Shown: positions 3,200 to 48,156 of the stretch, piece by piece
Numbering within the stretch: the stretch's first letter is position 1
Layout of the letters: each line of letters opens with the position of its first letter
IMG/VR virus record: IMGVR_UViG_3300028586_000020
Coordinates: 15,149 to 79,148 of that record
From: a virus
Taxonomy: Duplodnaviria; Caudoviricetes
Length of the DNA: 64,000 bases
Strand: one strand, 5' to 3'
The notes under the pieces: model-generated
The model's input: only the letters and a program-made list of their open reading frames with translations
What the model was told of the DNA's origin: nothing
Databases searched by the model: none
Program-made: the position numbers and the translations under genes

Positions 3200-4435
3200 T
3201 TAACGGGTGTTCTTGTTCGACAGCGAACCAGTCCAGGTTGCCATGTTGTCTTCCGACCAGAAGTACCAGACGTCTTTGGCGCCCGCTGCGGTGGTGCGCG
3301 CTGGTGTGACACCATCGACCCACTTGACATTGCTTGGCCAAGCAATAGCGAAAGCAGTCGGCACGTTGGCGTTGATGGTACTGACCGAGAACTCGACGAC
3401 TTGACCTGCCATATCACCGACATTACGGATATCAAAGCCGATGGCGCCATTGGCACTGACGGTCACTTGGTAAGCGCCGGCTTGGCTAATATCGATGGCG
3501 ATGGTGCCATTCATCGGGATCTTCACCAGATTTTGCGAACCCAGTCCAGTGAACTTTGGACGATCCATATTGGCCTTTTGATTGACCACGGCGATCAATG
3601 CTTTGTGTAACGCTTGCAGTTTGCACAGCGCGCTTAACACGCTATCGGTTTCCGACAGGTTTTCTGGCTCGACTTCGGTGAGGCTGGTAAGTTTGGCAGC
3701 CAACGCACGCGATTCAGTGAAATACTTGTTGATCTCACCTTCTGGTACGTTGTCTGTGGTGCGGGTTAAGTTCAACAACGCTTGTTCGACGTAGAGCTCC
3801 ATTTGCTCGACTGTCGGCACGCCCAGGTCAACAGCAGTGAGGTTGTGGGCATTGCCTTGCTGGTTGATGTGCTGCGTCATTGCTGAGCTGGCTTGGGTCA
3901 GAATCGCATCGACCATGCGGTTAAGGGCAGCCAACACACTGCTCATGCCGACCATGTCCTTCAGATTCCACTCATGGGGCACGGGTGGGAAGATGTCCGG
4001 GTAACCTGCCACTTGGTCCCAGCTGGTGGTACGGGGGTTGTAGACTTTGTCTGCCAGGATTTCTGCTGTCTTGTTGGCATCGACCGTCCACTCGCCACCG
4101 AGCGTTTGGTAAGGGTTAAAGATGACGGTACCACGCAGCTCATTGTTGAGCATGGTGATCGAACCCTTCACCGGTTTTTGGCATGCCTTACTGGCGCCGA
4201 TGAAATGGTGTGAGAAATAAAAATCTACTCCTTCCACGAGTGGGCGAATGTCCCCCTGCAACGACTTGAAGTTGAGCGTCATGCTTTCAGCAAAGAACGG
4301 CGTCGCTTTCGGAATCAGGAAAATGAAGTTCTCATCGCTCCCGCCGAGCAAAGGTTGCAGTTCGCCAACGACCCTGTTCGTCGCAGCTTGACCGGTAGGA
4401 TCGAAAGGATATTGCGGGCTTGTGATAGTAGACAT
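3200..4435 (-). CDS. Putative tail fibre / baseplate-attached virion protein
   Basis: The N-terminal YPFDPTG...N...E motif is typical of phiKZ-like virion fibre/baseplate proteins. The C-terminus IAWPSNVKWVDGVTPARTTAAGAKDVWYFWSED..TWTG resembles a common phage tail-fibre C-terminal domain. Start moved to ATG 4435 (AAGG RBS). Confidence 0.7.
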   Translation of the reverse strand: MSTITSPQYPFDPTGQAATNRVVGELQPLLGGSDENFIFLIPKATPFFAESMTLNFKSLQGDIRPLVEGVDFYFSHHFIGASKACQKPVKGSITMLNNELRGTVIFNPYQTLGGEWTVDANKTAEILADKVYNPRTTSWDQVAGYPDIFPPVPHEWNLKDMVGMSSVLAALNRMVDAILTQASSAMTQHINQQGNAHNLTAVDLGVPTVEQMELYVEQALLNLTRTTDNVPEGEINKYFTESRALAAKLTSLTEVEPENLSETDSVLSALCKLQALHKALIAVVNQKANMDRPKFTGLGSQNLVKIPMNGTIAIDISQAGAYQVTVSANGAIGFDIRNVGDMAGQVVEFSVSTINANVPTAFAIAWPSNVKWVDGVTPARTTAAGAKDVWYFWSEDNMATWTGSLSNKNTR

Positions 4436-46288: not shown

Positions 46289-46312
46289 TAAATAGTTTTG
46301 ACACTATATCAC
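46289..46312 (+). promoter_or_regulatory. Putative early promoter, CTATATCAC
   Basis: TAAATAGTTTTGACA-CTATATCAC; one of three copies of the motif. Confidence 0.55.
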
Positions 46313-46419
46313 TATTTTGAATTGCAATAGTAGTTGTCATTATGCAAAAAAGCAATACAGAAATATCGGTCATCCACCTGCTATAGAGCAGATCCACCAT
46401 TCAAAGTAGAGGAATCAAA

Positions 46420-47007
46420 TTGGGTACTCCCGTCAATCCCCTGTGGGATAAAGTTCTGGTTGTGTTCAAAGGCCATGAGCACAAGCTGTCCAATGTGCTC
46501 GCCAAAGCCACACCTGGTACGGTCGAAATGGAACTCGACAAAATCGATCTGGACGCAACGACTGCTGAAGTACGTTACGACGACGCTGTCGAATGTGAAG
46601 ACATTGGCCGTGGCATGCCAATCTTCTACAAACACGAAGGCAAGTTTATCGTGTTCACTGGCCGGCAAACCGTGGAAACGGTGAAGACCCACGCCAAACC
46701 AAAACCTGACGGCAAACCCATTACCGTTACCGGCCGGCTGTTGTCGTCAGTGGCACTCAAGTCGATTCGCATTGTGAAAGACGTGCCTGTCGAACCAACG
46801 CCTGCCGCTGCACCGTTTAACCCGCCGCGCTTTACTGGTAGCATCAACCCACGCCCTACCGAGCGCCGCGTGCCTTACCAAGACCGTCCTCGCCCGACGA
46901 GTTCGAGCATGTATCCCCCGCAGTCCAGTTCGTCGCGTTACGATTCACCCTATCCTGGTCAAACTGCCCGTACGCCCTACGGTAAGTCGACCAAAAAACC
47001 GCAGTAA
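46420..47007 (+). CDS. Hypothetical protein, possibly with a degenerate ParB/Srx-like fold and a disordered Pro/Arg/Ser/Tyr tail
   Basis: TTG start with AGAGGA RBS. PIFYKHEGKFIVFTGRQTV resembles ParB-type P....G.y.i.dG..R. Confidence 0.6.
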   Translation: MGTPVNPLWDKVLVVFKGHEHKLSNVLAKATPGTVEMELDKIDLDATTAEVRYDDAVECEDIGRGMPIFYKHEGKFIVFTGRQTVETVKTHAKPKPDGKPITVTGRLLSSVALKSIRIVKDVPVEPTPAAAPFNPPRFTGSINPRPTERRVPYQDRPRPTSSSMYPPQSSSSRYDSPYPGQTARTPYGKSTKKPQ

Positions 47008-47026
47008 TCTTTGTAGTACCGTTTAT

Positions 47027-47162
47027 GCTAGAGGTGGCCGAGTGGCTGAAGGCAGGTCCGCTGAACCGAGAAAGATGAAAATCCTATCGGAGGTAGATAC
47101 CTGGAAGGGTGAGTTAATCTCACCGGAGTAAGGCATGGGTTCGAATCCCATCCTCTAGCGCC
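47027..47162 (+). tRNA. Atypical tRNA-like element (Ser-type D arm, 8-bp acceptor stem, expanded anticodon region)
   Basis: GCTAGAGG/CCTCTAGC acceptor stem, G discriminator then CC; TG-GCC-GAGTGGCTGAA-GGC D arm; ATGGG-TTCGAAT-CCCAT T arm. About 80 nt separate the D and T arms and no canonical anticodon arm is present. Confidence 0.65.
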
Positions 47163-47204
47163 TTGTTTTAACCCGTAGTACATACCACCAAAAAGGAAAC
47201 CAGT

Positions 47205-47714
47205 ATGAGTACCGATAAAGCCGACATCAAGCTGAACCCAGCCGTCGAAGAAATGTCCAGCAAGATCCGCGAAGCCATCAGCGTCACGATCACCGGTAAA
47301 GGCGGCGACGTCGCTAACGCCGAGAACATCTACGAAAGCCTGCTGCCTGCTGACATCCCTGCCGACCTGGTCAAGCGCATCAATACCCACAACGAAATGT
47401 TCATGGCTGCCGCCGTCGACGCCGTCGGCGATACCTCGCGCGACTCCGCTTCCCAGAACGCCGACCTGACCGTCGTCAACGCCAGCTTCAACATGACCGG
47501 CCGCAACAAGTTCGATGTCCAATGGGACCGCGAAGTCGAACGCAACGCCGGCATCGCCGAAAAGGGCAAAGTCGCACCGAAGAAAACCGTCTACGGCGCC
47601 ATGTCGGCCAAGCTGACCGTGGCAGGCACCGATAGCGGCACCGGCGAAATGAACAAGGTCATGCGTCGCCAGAAACAAGCCGCCCACGACCTGTTCTCGA
47701 CCGCCACCGCCTAA
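47205..47714 (+). CDS. Hypothetical protein with high-expression codon usage
   Basis: 169 aa, AAGGA RBS, strongly C-ending codons. Confidence 0.8.
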   Translation: MSTDKADIKLNPAVEEMSSKIREAISVTITGKGGDVANAENIYESLLPADIPADLVKRINTHNEMFMAAAVDAVGDTSRDSASQNADLTVVNASFNMTGRNKFDVQWDREVERNAGIAEKGKVAPKKTVYGAMSAKLTVAGTDSGTGEMNKVMRRQKQAAHDLFSTATA

Positions 47715-48156
47715 GCATCGCCGGCCTGGGCCACACGGCAAGCATGAAAGCTCACCAGGCACACCCATGCAAGCCCAACGGCTAAGCCAAAAAATCTGGC
47801 GTACTCCGCAGCGTCTACCAAACGGTACGGAGTACGCTAGTAAAAGGAACTAGGGTCATCCTTGTCTTGTATTACATACATCGATGTACCAGGCACACAG
47901 ACAGAGTATTGCCTGGTACAGAAGGTGTCACTGTAAGACGAAGTTCTCTTTAAGAGAACATTCCCTCATCTCTTTCGAAACATACCTCTTAGCCTGACGG
48001 GGCAAACACATGGGGCGCATTGGTCCTCATCGAAAGAGATGTAAGTAGTCCATGTCCGCTACCGTAAGGGAAGTTGGCAAACAACAGACATGGTTGTGAC
48101 CAGGCTCTCGCTCCTTCGGGAGCGAGAGCCTGAGTTATGATGTCTCTTTTTTTTTT
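47715..48156 (+). ncRNA. Candidate structured non-coding RNA (about 440 nt)
   Basis: No credible ORF. Consecutive stems at 47724-29/47755-60, 47796-808/47828-840, 47885-895/47910-920, 47943-959, 47967-978/48030-041 and 48050-056/48087-093, then a 14-bp terminator hairpin. Confidence 0.5.
48101..48156 (+). terminator. Rho-independent terminator
   Basis: CAGGCTCTCGCTCC-TTCG-GGAGCGAGAGCCTG, then TTATG and a 10-T run. Confidence 0.85.

What the first reader, a model, noticed from the sequence alone, without database searches (positions are those of the whole stretch)
47027..47162. tRNA-like element with an 8-bp acceptor stem and about 58-nt structured insert in the anticodon loop
Seen in sequence: acceptor GCTAGAGG(47027-34)/CCTCTAGC(47152-59), G discriminator, then CC (full CCA not encoded). 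The D arm is nearly the same as bacterial tRNA-Ser(GCT) (GAGGTGGCCGAGxGGCTGAAGGC) and the T arm is canonical. GGTCC(47055-59) can pair imperfectly with GGAGT(47125-29), leaving a 5-nt variable loop AAGGC. Removing 47066-47123 (58 nt) at the canonical 37/38 position gives a loop GC-TGA-AC with a Ser anticodon, but with C33 and no long V arm. The insert itself folds (CCGA/TCGG around a GAAA tetraloop hairpin, AGGT/ACCT, GGTGAG/CTCACC). Established: an 8+5 acceptor/T domain is characteristic of bacterial tRNA-Sec; bacterial tRNA introns are much larger self-splicing introns; host anticodon nucleases target anticodon loops. Inference: a spliced tRNA of unusual type, a non-translating tRNA mimic or decoy (SerRS substrate, anticodon-nuclease decoy), or a processing module.
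Basis: partly seen in the sequence, partly recalled or inferred. Interest (0 to 1): 0.8.

Follow-up and report, generated by a model that had tools for sequence, protein, structure and literature searches.

The report
Anticodon-less tRNA look-alike in jumbo phage
An uncultured giant phage carries a small RNA gene that keeps the whole upper body of a serine tRNA but has a conserved three-hairpin module where the anticodon loop should be, so it most likely makes a stable tRNA-shaped RNA that does not read codons. Related phages, including the cultured Ralstonia phage RP12, carry several other unannotated RNAs built the same way.

Summary
The element is real. Rfam's tRNA model scores 47028-47159 at 36.4 bits (cut-off 29), with 75 nt where the 17-nt anticodon arm belongs. 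ARAGORN without introns finds nothing.

One homologue exists at the same intergenic site in a related jumbo phage (L018/L019, 83% identical). It shows two compensatory changes (acceptor 2-71, T stem 49-65). It repairs the window's G x G mismatch in the anticodon-stem remnant. Its H2-GGAAG-H3 head is almost unchanged.

The eighth acceptor pair is not kept (A x C), so there is no tRNA-Sec-like 8/5 design.

The element is a discrete ~158-nt accessory module: a near-identical phage (L007) lacks exactly it.

No group I core, BHB motif, splicing endonuclease or known Rfam family fits the insert. ARAGORN in intron mode gives homologues different anticodons.

Relatives hold at least six other families of tRNA bodies with structured inserts. 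Two keep the alanine G3:U70 pair while neighbouring pairs covary.

Best reading (0.5): a non-decoding tRNA-chassis RNA, cut out by tRNA-processing enzymes, whose head is the working part. The target is unknown. A spliced tRNA remains a rival.

This scan has noted similar phage tRNA mimics on other DNA. The nearest in print are the 'enigmatic introns' of Lak phage tRNAs.

The parts
47008..47026 (+). 5' leader between the stop codon of the 195-aa ORF and the element. It ends in ...CCGTTTAT, and U is at -1 of the 8-position reading.
   Evidence: CCGTTT..TAT precedes the element in both homologues and belongs to the ~158-nt indel that L007 lacks.
47027..47162 (+). The whole tRNA-like RNA gene (136 nt, counting the G-CC tail).
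   Evidence: Rfam RF00005 36.4 bits. Model R1 scores 173 bits here and 178 bits on L018. There is one copy in the 79-kb record.
47027..47034 (+). Acceptor stem, 5' strand. There are 7 conserved pairs from 47028; position 47027 pairs only in the window.
   Evidence: Pair 47029/47157 changes U-A to C-G. Pair 47034/47152 changes G-C to G-U. Pair 47027/47159 is G-C here and A x C in L018.
47035..47054 (+). U8, G9, then a Ser-type (class II-like) D arm with G18 G19, then A26.
   Evidence: There is one change (D loop C47046 to T) between the homologues. It is one mismatch away from the D arm of the Ser-like element L060(-)1501-1615.
47055..47059 (+). Anticodon-stem remnant, 5' strand (pairs with 47125-47129).
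   Evidence: The G56 x G128 mismatch of the window is G-C in L018, and C59-G125 becomes U-G.
47060..47065 (+). Junction strand GCUGAA (ACCGAA in L018). This is the remnant of the 5' half of a Ser anticodon loop, with C at position 33.
47066..47090 (+). Hairpin 1, the variable part of the head.
   Evidence: The inner GAU/AUC stem is kept. The outer stem is lost in L018, which also has a 4-nt indel and a loop change from GAAA to UACA.
47091..47102 (+). Hairpin 2 (AGGU AGAU ACCU), invariant.
47103..47107 (+). Single-stranded junction GGAAG, invariant.
47108..47124 (+). Hairpin 3 (6-bp stem). The loop is UUAAU here and CUAGU in L018; both hold a self-complementary 4-mer.
47125..47134 (+). Anticodon-stem remnant, 3' strand (GGAGU), and the 5-nt variable loop AAGGC, where C48 can pair with G15.
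47135..47151 (+). T arm (5-bp stem, loop UUCGAAU).
   Evidence: Pair 47135/47151 changes A-U to G-C.
47152..47162 (+). Acceptor stem 3' strand, then G (A in L018) and CC. The final A of CCA is not encoded.
   Evidence: A CCA-adding-type enzyme (PF01743) is encoded in two complete relatives.

Best explanation
The element is a phage gene for a tRNA-shaped RNA that does not decode. It is derived from a serine-type tRNA. The acceptor, D and T arms (the 'chassis') are kept intact. A short remnant of the anticodon stem carries a 65-nt, three-hairpin head in place of the 7-nt anticodon loop.

Inferred mechanism:
1. The element is transcribed as part of the + strand unit 46290-48150, between the 195-aa and 169-aa ORFs.
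2. The intact tRNA body lets host RNase P cut at its 5' end (U at -1, R-C-C after the stem).
3. 3' trimming plus a CCA-adding enzyme finish the 3' end, releasing a stable RNA of about 135 nt.
4. The conserved module hairpin 2 - GGAAG - hairpin 3 is the working part, probably a docking site for a protein or RNA (host or phage). It may act as a pair through its self-complementary loop.

The element is an accessory module, present or absent between near-identical phages. That is the pattern expected of host-interaction or counter-defence cargo.

Shown: the fold, its conservation, the presence/absence pattern, and the existence of sister families.

Inferred: expression, processing, any aminoacylation, and the target.
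For: 1. Rfam tRNA is over its cut-off in the window and in the homologue, each time with a 75-78-nt gap at the anticodon arm.

2. The homologue L018/L019 lies at the same site and is 83% identical. The neighbouring non-coding DNA and the tail of the upstream gene are only 20-57% identical per 100 columns.

3. Of 64 pair cells, 98.4% form a standard pair, against 31-48% when partners are slid. There are two double compensatory changes, and the G x G mismatch is repaired in L018.

4. The 34 nt of hairpin 2 - GGAAG - hairpin 3 differ at only 2 positions, both in the hairpin 3 loop. The 6-nt 'anticodon' strand differs at 2.

5. Position 33 is C in both homologues. The variable loop is 5 nt although the D arm is Ser-type.

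6. ARAGORN in intron mode gives different anticodons to homologues: Gln versus Gly here, and Gly versus Asn in the AlaA family.

7. No tRNA-splicing endonuclease was found in four related records or RP12. RtcB and an RNA ligase are present only in RP12. PF01743 is present in two complete relatives.

8. The same architecture recurs with different heads in relatives. In the AlaA family (A7), G3:U70 is kept while pairs 4-69, 5-68, 7-66 and 27-43 covary. One head hairpin covaries. The 5' junction differs (CUUC versus AAAG), so no anticodon is conserved.

9. L018 and L007 are near-identical around the site but differ by exactly this ~158-nt module.
Against: - Only two distinct sequences of this family exist, so covariation is thin. 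The shuffle control is not significant (118 of 500).
- The stems of hairpins 2 and 3 never vary, so they are supported by conservation only.
- There are no expression data.
- The fold z-scores are weak.
- An alternative helix (47056-62 with 47092-98) is 7 bp in L018 and is chosen by RNAalifold.
- The function of the head is a guess. No partner was identified.
Confidence: 0.5

Rival explanations
1. It is a tRNA-Ser gene with an intron. The 58-nt (62-nt in L018) insert after position 37 is removed by an unknown protein-dependent route (endonuclease plus ligase), and the spliced tRNA reads UCN codons. This would be the same kind of thing as the 'enigmatic introns' of Lak megaphage tRNAs.
For: - The insert sits exactly at the canonical 37/38 position.
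- After removal, ARAGORN calls tRNA-Ser(tga) in the window and tRNA-Ser(cga) in L018.
- Phage tRNA genes with conserved, present-or-absent inserts have been published as introns (PMC6784885).
- RP12, which carries two insert-bearing tRNA-likes, encodes RtcB and an RNA ligase.
Against: - There is no group I or other ribozyme match, and 58 nt is far below self-splicing size.
- I found no bulge-helix-bulge: positions 32-35 do not pair with the 4 nt before the last two intron bases (read).
- PF01974 is absent from all five records searched. RtcB and the ligase are absent from the three closer relatives.
- The product would have C33, a G x G mismatch, and a Ser-type D arm without the long variable arm that bacterial SerRS needs (established knowledge).
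- Any base at position 34 of NGA is Ser, so the 'kept' isotype carries no information.
- The insert core is more conserved than the anticodon strand.
- Sister families have no recoverable anticodon.
Confidence: 0.15
2. It is a cis-acting punctuation element. The tRNA-like body serves only to make RNase P and 3' nucleases cut the operon transcript between the 195-aa and 169-aa genes. This sets mRNA ends and stability, as with MALAT1-mascRNA or mitochondrial tRNA punctuation. The released RNA would have no job of its own.
For: - It lies 19 nt after one stop codon and 42 nt before the next start, on the coding strand, inside one transcription unit bounded by terminators.
- The tRNA body is intact.
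Against: - Relatives express the same two genes without it.
- A plain tRNA or a hairpin would do the job, so this does not explain the conservation of the hairpin 2 - GGAAG - hairpin 3 head.
- Sister elements sit in tRNA clusters, not between protein genes.
Confidence: 0.15
3. It is a decaying tRNA-Ser pseudogene that picked up a junk insertion and has no function.
For: - C33, a stem mismatch, no CCA and no long variable arm.
- Hairpin 1 is already diverging.
- The element is dispensable in many relatives.
Against: - Every tRNA helix is kept, with compensatory or wobble changes and no disruptive ones, across a divergence at which the neighbouring protein is only 68% identical.
- It is much better conserved than the flanking non-coding DNA.
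- The same design recurs in at least six other conserved families.
Confidence: 0.1

Closest known systems
'Enigmatic' introns in tRNA genes of Lak megaphages (Devoto et al. 2019, PMC6784885; read)
   Same: These are phage tRNA genes interrupted in the anticodon region by conserved inserts. The inserts are present or absent between close variants and match no Rfam family. One Lak insert itself looks like a tRNA, as does the head of L059:1060-1219 here.
   Different: The Lak cases were called by tRNAscan-SE in eukaryote mode, with a recognisable anticodon and tRNA type, in Prevotella megaphages. Here the would-be anticodon loop has C33, the body and the variable loop do not match any one isotype, and homologues of sister families share no anticodon. 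Splicing has been shown in neither case.
Canonical bacterial and phage tRNA-Ser (Rfam RF00005)
   Same: Acceptor, D and T arms, the tertiary-pair nucleotides (U8, G15:C48, G18 G19, T loop UUCGAAU) and the Ser-type D loop.
   Different: A 65-nt three-hairpin head replaces the 7-nt loop. There is no long variable arm. Position 33 is C. The acceptor has 8 positions in the window. CCA is incomplete.
YrlA-type Y RNAs, tRNA mimics bound by Ro60 (Chen et al. 2014, PMC4201824; Rfam RF02553)
   Same: A non-decoding RNA that keeps a tRNA-like D/T elbow next to a functional module, found in bacteria and phages.
   Different: In YrlA the RNA ends lie at the anticodon-stem side and the acceptor stem is capped; here the ends are at the acceptor stem. 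There is no RF02553 match on the element. No TROVE/Ro60 gene was found in the related records. Only a relative's nested element gives a weak YrlA hit (31 bits against a cut-off of 69).
tmRNA tRNA-like domain
   Same: A tRNA-like RNA without an anticodon that is still handled by tRNA enzymes. The Ala-type sister families share its G3:U70 pair.
   Different: There is no tag reading frame and no pseudoknots, and a full D arm is present. ARAGORN and Rfam find no tmRNA.
tRNA-like processing handles and scaffolds: MALAT1-mascRNA (PMC8457004). From my own memory: engineered 'tRNA scaffolds', in which an RNA of interest replaces the anticodon loop.
   Same: A tRNA body is used so that RNase P and 3' enzymes cut out and stabilise an RNA. 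The cargo sits where the anticodon loop was.
   Different: Those are eukaryotic or man-made. This would be a natural phage use.
Phage T4 stable RNAs RNAC and RNAD (function unknown; PMC9697503)
   Same: Small stable phage RNAs of unknown function made late in infection. From memory, they lie in the tRNA gene region.
   Different: No sequence relation was tested. Their tRNA-likeness is from memory only.

Membership tests
tRNA (RF00005), as a decoding tRNA | Cloverleaf with acceptor, D and T arms scoring over the Rfam gathering score | tested here: met
   36.4 bits against 29. The homologue scores 36.1 bits.
tRNA (RF00005), as a decoding tRNA | 5-bp anticodon stem closing a 7-nt loop with U33 and a purine at 37 | tested here: not met
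   The loop is 65 nt with three hairpins. Even after the proposed splice, position 33 is C in both homologues. ARAGORN without introns finds nothing.
tRNA (RF00005), as a decoding tRNA | Aminoacylation and use on the ribosome | not testable with these tools
   Needs acid-urea gels, tRNA-seq or in vitro charging.
Bacterial tRNA-Ser | Long variable arm between the anticodon stem and the T stem (a SerRS determinant; established knowledge) | tested here: not met
   The variable loop is AAGGC, 5 nt, in both homologues.
Bacterial tRNA-Sec (RF01852) | 8-bp acceptor plus 5-bp T stem, conserved | tested here: not met
   The eighth pair is G-C in the window but A x C in L018.
Bacterial tRNA-Sec (RF01852) | 6-bp D stem with a 4-nt loop, long variable arm, anticodon UCA | tested here: not met
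   The D stem is 3-4 bp with a 9-10-nt loop. There is no variable arm and no UCA. Rfam keeps tRNA, not tRNA-Sec, as the best model of the clan.
Group I intron in a tRNA anticodon loop | Catalytic core (P3-P9) detectable by Rfam Intron_gpI, and a size of about 200 nt or more | tested here: not met
   The insert is 58-65 nt. Only tRNA and two chance-level matches appear at E up to 10.
Archaeal/eukaryal protein-spliced tRNA intron | Bulge-helix-bulge at the exon-intron borders | tested here: not met
   Positions 32-35 (47060-63) do not pair with 47118-21. The only 4-bp helix near the 3' border (47068-71 with 47118-21) leaves 8 unpaired nt on the 5' side (read).
Archaeal/eukaryal protein-spliced tRNA intron | A splicing endonuclease (PF01974) available | tested here: inconclusive
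   None in G000, three related records or RP12. However, G000 is only 29% complete and the host is unknown.
YrlA / Y RNA (RF02553) | Match to the family model, and a Ro60 (TROVE) partner | tested here: not met
   No RF02553 match on the element. No PF05731 in five records.
tmRNA (RF00023) | tRNA-like domain plus a tag-peptide reading frame | tested here: not met
   ARAGORN and Rfam find none.
Clade-specific 'tRNA chassis with structured head' RNAs (defined here) | Intact acceptor, D and T arms, with the anticodon loop replaced by a conserved multi-hairpin domain | tested here: met
   This element and L018 (A4), together with:
- AlaA: L061:703-829 and L059:1361-1491 (A7);
- AlaB: L061:1185-1302 and L059:1060-1219;
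- the 155-nt family (A8);
- L015_t2 and L009_t (A5);
- L015_t1, L010 and L017;
- two elements in RP12.

The most novel reading that the evidence does not exclude
RP12-like jumbo phages (phiKZ relatives) use tRNA bodies as a general chassis for a set of swappable RNA heads. The bodies chosen are Ser-, Ala- and Leu-like, the types whose synthetases ignore the anticodon. The resulting RNAs would be processed, CCA-tailed and perhaps aminoacylated like tRNAs, but would act off the codon. They could be decoys or sponges for host tRNA-directed defences or tRNA-binding factors, or carriers of amino acids for a non-ribosomal reaction. This element would be one accessory member of that system.
Probability: 0.3. 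Interest if true: 0.85.

Novelty: new variant of a known kind. Interest (0 to 1): 0.6.

Why it matters
Phage tRNA genes are usually read as codon-usage helpers or as replacements for tRNAs cut by host defences. This element shows a tRNA body kept under selection while the decoding part is replaced by another conserved RNA module. Relatives show the same design at least six more times, including two unannotated genes in the cultured phage RP12.

If these RNAs are made and stable, they are a natural version of the 'tRNA scaffold' trick. They would be a new class of phage small RNAs whose targets could be host defence or translation factors.

Standard annotation (ARAGORN, tRNAscan-SE in bacterial mode) misses them, so they are probably under-counted in phage genomes. 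The cultured relatives make the question testable at the bench.

Tried and rejected
- Known RNA families: Rfam at the gathering score over the window, and at E up to 10 over 46950-47250, gave only tRNA. No ribozyme, riboswitch, Y RNA or tmRNA matched.
- Hammerhead core: CUGANGA...GAAA does not fit (CUGAACC here, CCGAACC in L018).
- Bulge-helix-bulge: not present.
- More homologues:
  - blastn against 50,697 phage records found only generic tRNA-Ser pieces.
  - Exact and stem-degenerate patterns of the head gave 0 hits in viral, metagenome and genome collections.
  - A pattern of Ser D loop, long gap and T loop gave unrelated oddities only.
  - Model R1 found no second copy in the record or in four related records.
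- Synteny: the element is absent at this site in L007-L010, L015-L017, L020 and RP12.
- A tree of the 169-aa protein was unresolved. The protease tree showed that presence of the element does not follow phylogeny.
- Promoter motifs: GTAGTAC flanks the element on both sides but is not enriched in the window (6 found against 3 expected). CTATATCAC is not enriched either. There is no sigma-70-like site next to it.
- Flanking proteins gave no functional clue in Pfam or PHROGs.
- Resemblances of the head to the sarcin-ricin loop (ACCGGAGU) and to the SRP RNA motif GGAAGG were dropped, because the first is not conserved in L018.
- Literature searches found no description of these RNAs.

Full report
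**What is there**

The window is part of a 79-kb IMG/VR virus record, about 29% complete. It is syntenic with the phiKZ-related Ralstonia jumbo phages RP12 and RP31 and with Burkholderia phage FLC9. The shared gene order is RNA polymerase beta, two hypothetical genes, a virion protein, the prohead protease, a hypothetical gene, then the 169-aa gene, with the tail tube and sheath genes on the other strand.

The element lies on the coding strand, 19 nt after the stop of a 195-aa ORF and 42 nt before the start of the 169-aa ORF. Rfam's tRNA model matches 47028-47159 at 36.4 bits (gathering score 29). It aligns the acceptor, D and T arms and the variable loop, and leaves 75 nt where the 17-nt anticodon arm belongs. 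ARAGORN without introns finds no tRNA or tmRNA in the whole window. At E up to 10, no other Rfam family fits the region.

- a stem remnant GGUCC/GGAGU with a G x G mismatch;
- a 6-nt strand GCUGAA;
- hairpins at 47066-90, 47091-102 and 47108-24, with the last two separated by GGAAG.

**A homologue, and what it shows**

The 169-aa neighbour has only eleven relatives in 5.8 billion proteins. I fetched their contigs. One lineage (L018 and L019, two samples; neighbour protein 68% identical) has the element at the same site, 83% identical.

The differences are informative:
- Acceptor pair 47029/47157 changes from U-A to C-G.
- T-stem pair 47135/47151 changes from A-U to G-C.
- Two pairs change to G-U.
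- The G x G mismatch of the stem remnant becomes G-C.
- No tRNA helix is broken.

With only two sequences the shuffle control is not significant (118 of 500). The register is specific, though: 98% of cells pair, against 31-48% when the partners are slid.

The 34 nt of hairpin 2, GGAAG and hairpin 3 differ at two positions only, both in the hairpin 3 loop. That loop changes from UUAAU to CUAGU, so its self-complementary 4-mer is kept. Hairpin 1 is loose: its outer stem is lost, it has a 4-nt indel, and its GAAA loop becomes UACA.

The element stands out against its surroundings. Per 100 alignment columns, it is about 80% identical between the two phages. The tail of the upstream gene is 20-50% identical, and the non-coding DNA after the 169-aa gene is 32-57% identical.

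**The 8-bp stem**

G47027-C47159 is A x C in L018, so the eighth pair is not a conserved feature and the tRNA-Sec analogy fails. tRNA-Sec also needs a 6-bp D stem, a long variable arm and UCA, and none of these is present. Two things do fit a mature 5' end at 47027: U at -1, and purine-C-C right after the eighth position, in both homologues. These are the contexts that bacterial RNase P prefers (established knowledge). I leave the exact 5' end open.

**An accessory module**

By the protease gene, L018 is nearly identical to L007, which lacks the element. The window is closest to L015/L017, which also lack it. Aligned, L018 and L007 differ here by one clean indel of about 158 nt: the leader CCGTTTTACCTAT, the element, and ACCTA. 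The indel lies between the stop codon and the conserved leader of the 169-aa gene. So the element has been gained, lost or exchanged recently as a unit. It is also absent at this site in L008-L010, L020 and RP12. The slot just downstream is a cargo hot spot. It holds a ~430-nt structured non-coding stretch in the window. In L015-L017 it holds Hcp, Rap1a and Tae4 genes plus two tRNA-like elements.

**Intron or mimic?**

The same cut in L018 gives tRNA-Ser(cga). This is weak support, because any base at position 34 of NGA is Ser.

Evidence against a spliced decoding tRNA:
- Position 33 is C in both homologues.
- The body has a Ser-type D arm but a 5-nt variable loop, so the SerRS determinant is missing.
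- The insert core is better conserved than the anticodon strand.
- 58 nt has no known self-splicing chemistry and no Rfam ribozyme match.
- There is no bulge-helix-bulge.
- No splicing endonuclease is encoded in the record, in three related records or in RP12.
- RtcB and an RNA ligase occur only in RP12.
- ARAGORN in intron mode gives homologues different introns and anticodons: Gln against Gly here, and Gly against Asn in a sister family.

Two complete relatives do encode a CCA-adding-type enzyme. That fits tRNA-like RNAs whose CCA is not fully encoded.

**The wider picture in this clade**

A covariance model of the element (R1) and Rfam tRNA searches of related genomes turned up many tRNA bodies with large structured inserts. 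ARAGORN misses them and RefSeq does not annotate them.
- They form families conserved between genomes.
- In the AlaA family (L061:703-829 and L059:1361-1491), CCA is encoded and G3:U70, the alanine identity pair, is kept while pairs 4-69, 5-68, 7-66 and 27-43 covary.
- In AlaA the anticodon loop is replaced by three hairpins, one of which covaries. The strand where an anticodon would sit differs completely (CUUC against AAAG).
- A second Ala-type family carries, in one genome, a head that is itself a circularly permuted tRNA-like cloverleaf. It gives a weak YrlA hit of 31 bits.
- No Ro60 gene is present in these genomes.
- RP12, reported to have a single tRNA (PMC5468394), has two such elements flanking its tRNA-Asn.
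- The bodies are Ser-like, Ala-like or Leu-like. These are the isotypes whose synthetases do not read the anticodon (established knowledge). That hints, no more, that charging may matter.

**Interpretation**

The best-supported reading is a non-decoding tRNA-chassis RNA. The body supplies processing and stability, and the head supplies function. I put this at about 0.5. The rivals are a protein-spliced 'enigmatic intron' tRNA (0.15), a pure mRNA punctuation element (0.15) and a decaying pseudogene (0.1). What the head binds is unknown.

The self-complementary hairpin 3 loop suggests pairing between two copies. The invariant GGAAG junction, and two further GGA motifs at helix ends, could be protein sites. 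An alternative helix (47056-62 with 47092-98; 7 bp in L018, weaker here) is unexplained.

**Relation to what is known**

In print, the nearest are the conserved, present-or-absent 'enigmatic introns' of Lak megaphage tRNAs, one of which looks like a tRNA itself (PMC6784885). A 2023 catalogue of viral structured RNAs mentions tRNA-like candidates without this architecture (PMC10690425).

This scan has already noted several other phage tRNA mimics with replaced anticodon loops on other DNA. Those are unverified notes. One of them lost part of its claim on a later check, which is a reason for caution about function.

I rate the element a new variant of a known but barely characterised kind.

Noticed in passing
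window 47715-48150: About 430 nt of non-coding, strongly paired sequence follows the 169-aa gene and ends in a 14-bp UUCG-capped terminator. Its 5' hairpin (GCCTGG...CCAGGC) and a 3' block (about 47955-48100) are shared with L007 and L018. The middle is unrelated in L015-L017. There is no Rfam match at E up to 10.
   Followed up: partly
L049 (RP12, NC_041911.1) minus strand, 1616-1501 and 1402-1288: Two unannotated tRNA-like genes flank the only annotated tRNA (Asn) of the cultured phage RP12. One is 116 nt, has a Ser-type D arm, an encoded CCA and two hairpins instead of an anticodon arm. The other is 115 nt and has a 37-nt 'anticodon loop'. RP12 also encodes RtcB and an RNA ligase.
   Followed up: partly
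L061:703-829 and 1185-1302; L059:1361-1491 and 1060-1219: Two families of Ala-type (G3:U70) tRNA bodies with 48-100-nt structured heads lie in the tRNA clusters of two complete relatives. In L059:1060-1219 the head is a circularly permuted tRNA-like cloverleaf (T arm, GNRA-capped acceptor-like stem, D arm) nested in the outer anticodon loop.
   Followed up: partly
L015:3929-4032 and 4044-4207; L009:3793-3949; L010:3759-3861; L017:4098-4199: Further tRNA-like elements with about 100-nt three-hairpin heads sit downstream of the 169-aa gene homologue in relatives, just before a terminator. The closing stem of the head covaries between L015 and L009 (GCAG/CUGC against AAGGG/CCCUU).
   Followed up: partly
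L015-L017: 4348-5754: In some relatives the variable slot between the 169-aa gene and the tail tube gene carries T6SS-type genes (Hcp, Rap1a immunity, Tae4 amidase). L017 also has an I-TevI-like homing endonuclease gene in front of the protease gene.
   Followed up: no
L002:3509-3580, L003:4357-4480, L004:2237-2299, L006:49-111 (unrelated viral contigs): One tRNA-like gene occurs in three states: with a 5-nt 'anticodon loop', with a 52-nt insertion in it, and with the loop and part of the stem deleted. Next to it is a 107-nt Ser-type tRNA-like gene with a 15-nt loop.
   Followed up: no
L030, L035, L047 and L041 (metagenome contigs, one from TARA): A Ser-type tRNA gene with a normal long variable arm carries a conserved ~49-nt insert in the anticodon loop. 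The source organisms are unknown.
   Followed up: no
window 47013-47019 and 47175-47181: GTAGTAC occurs on both sides of the element. Relatives without the element have one GTAG(T/C)AC about 35-45 nt before the 169-aa gene start. This may be a duplicated promoter or leader motif, but it is not enriched in the window (6 found against 3 expected).
   Followed up: partly
window 47056-47062 with 47092-47098: An alternative helix competes with the anticodon-stem remnant and hairpin 2. The three substitutions that separate L018 from the window all strengthen it in L018 (7 bp). It could mark a conformational switch or be chance.
   Followed up: partly
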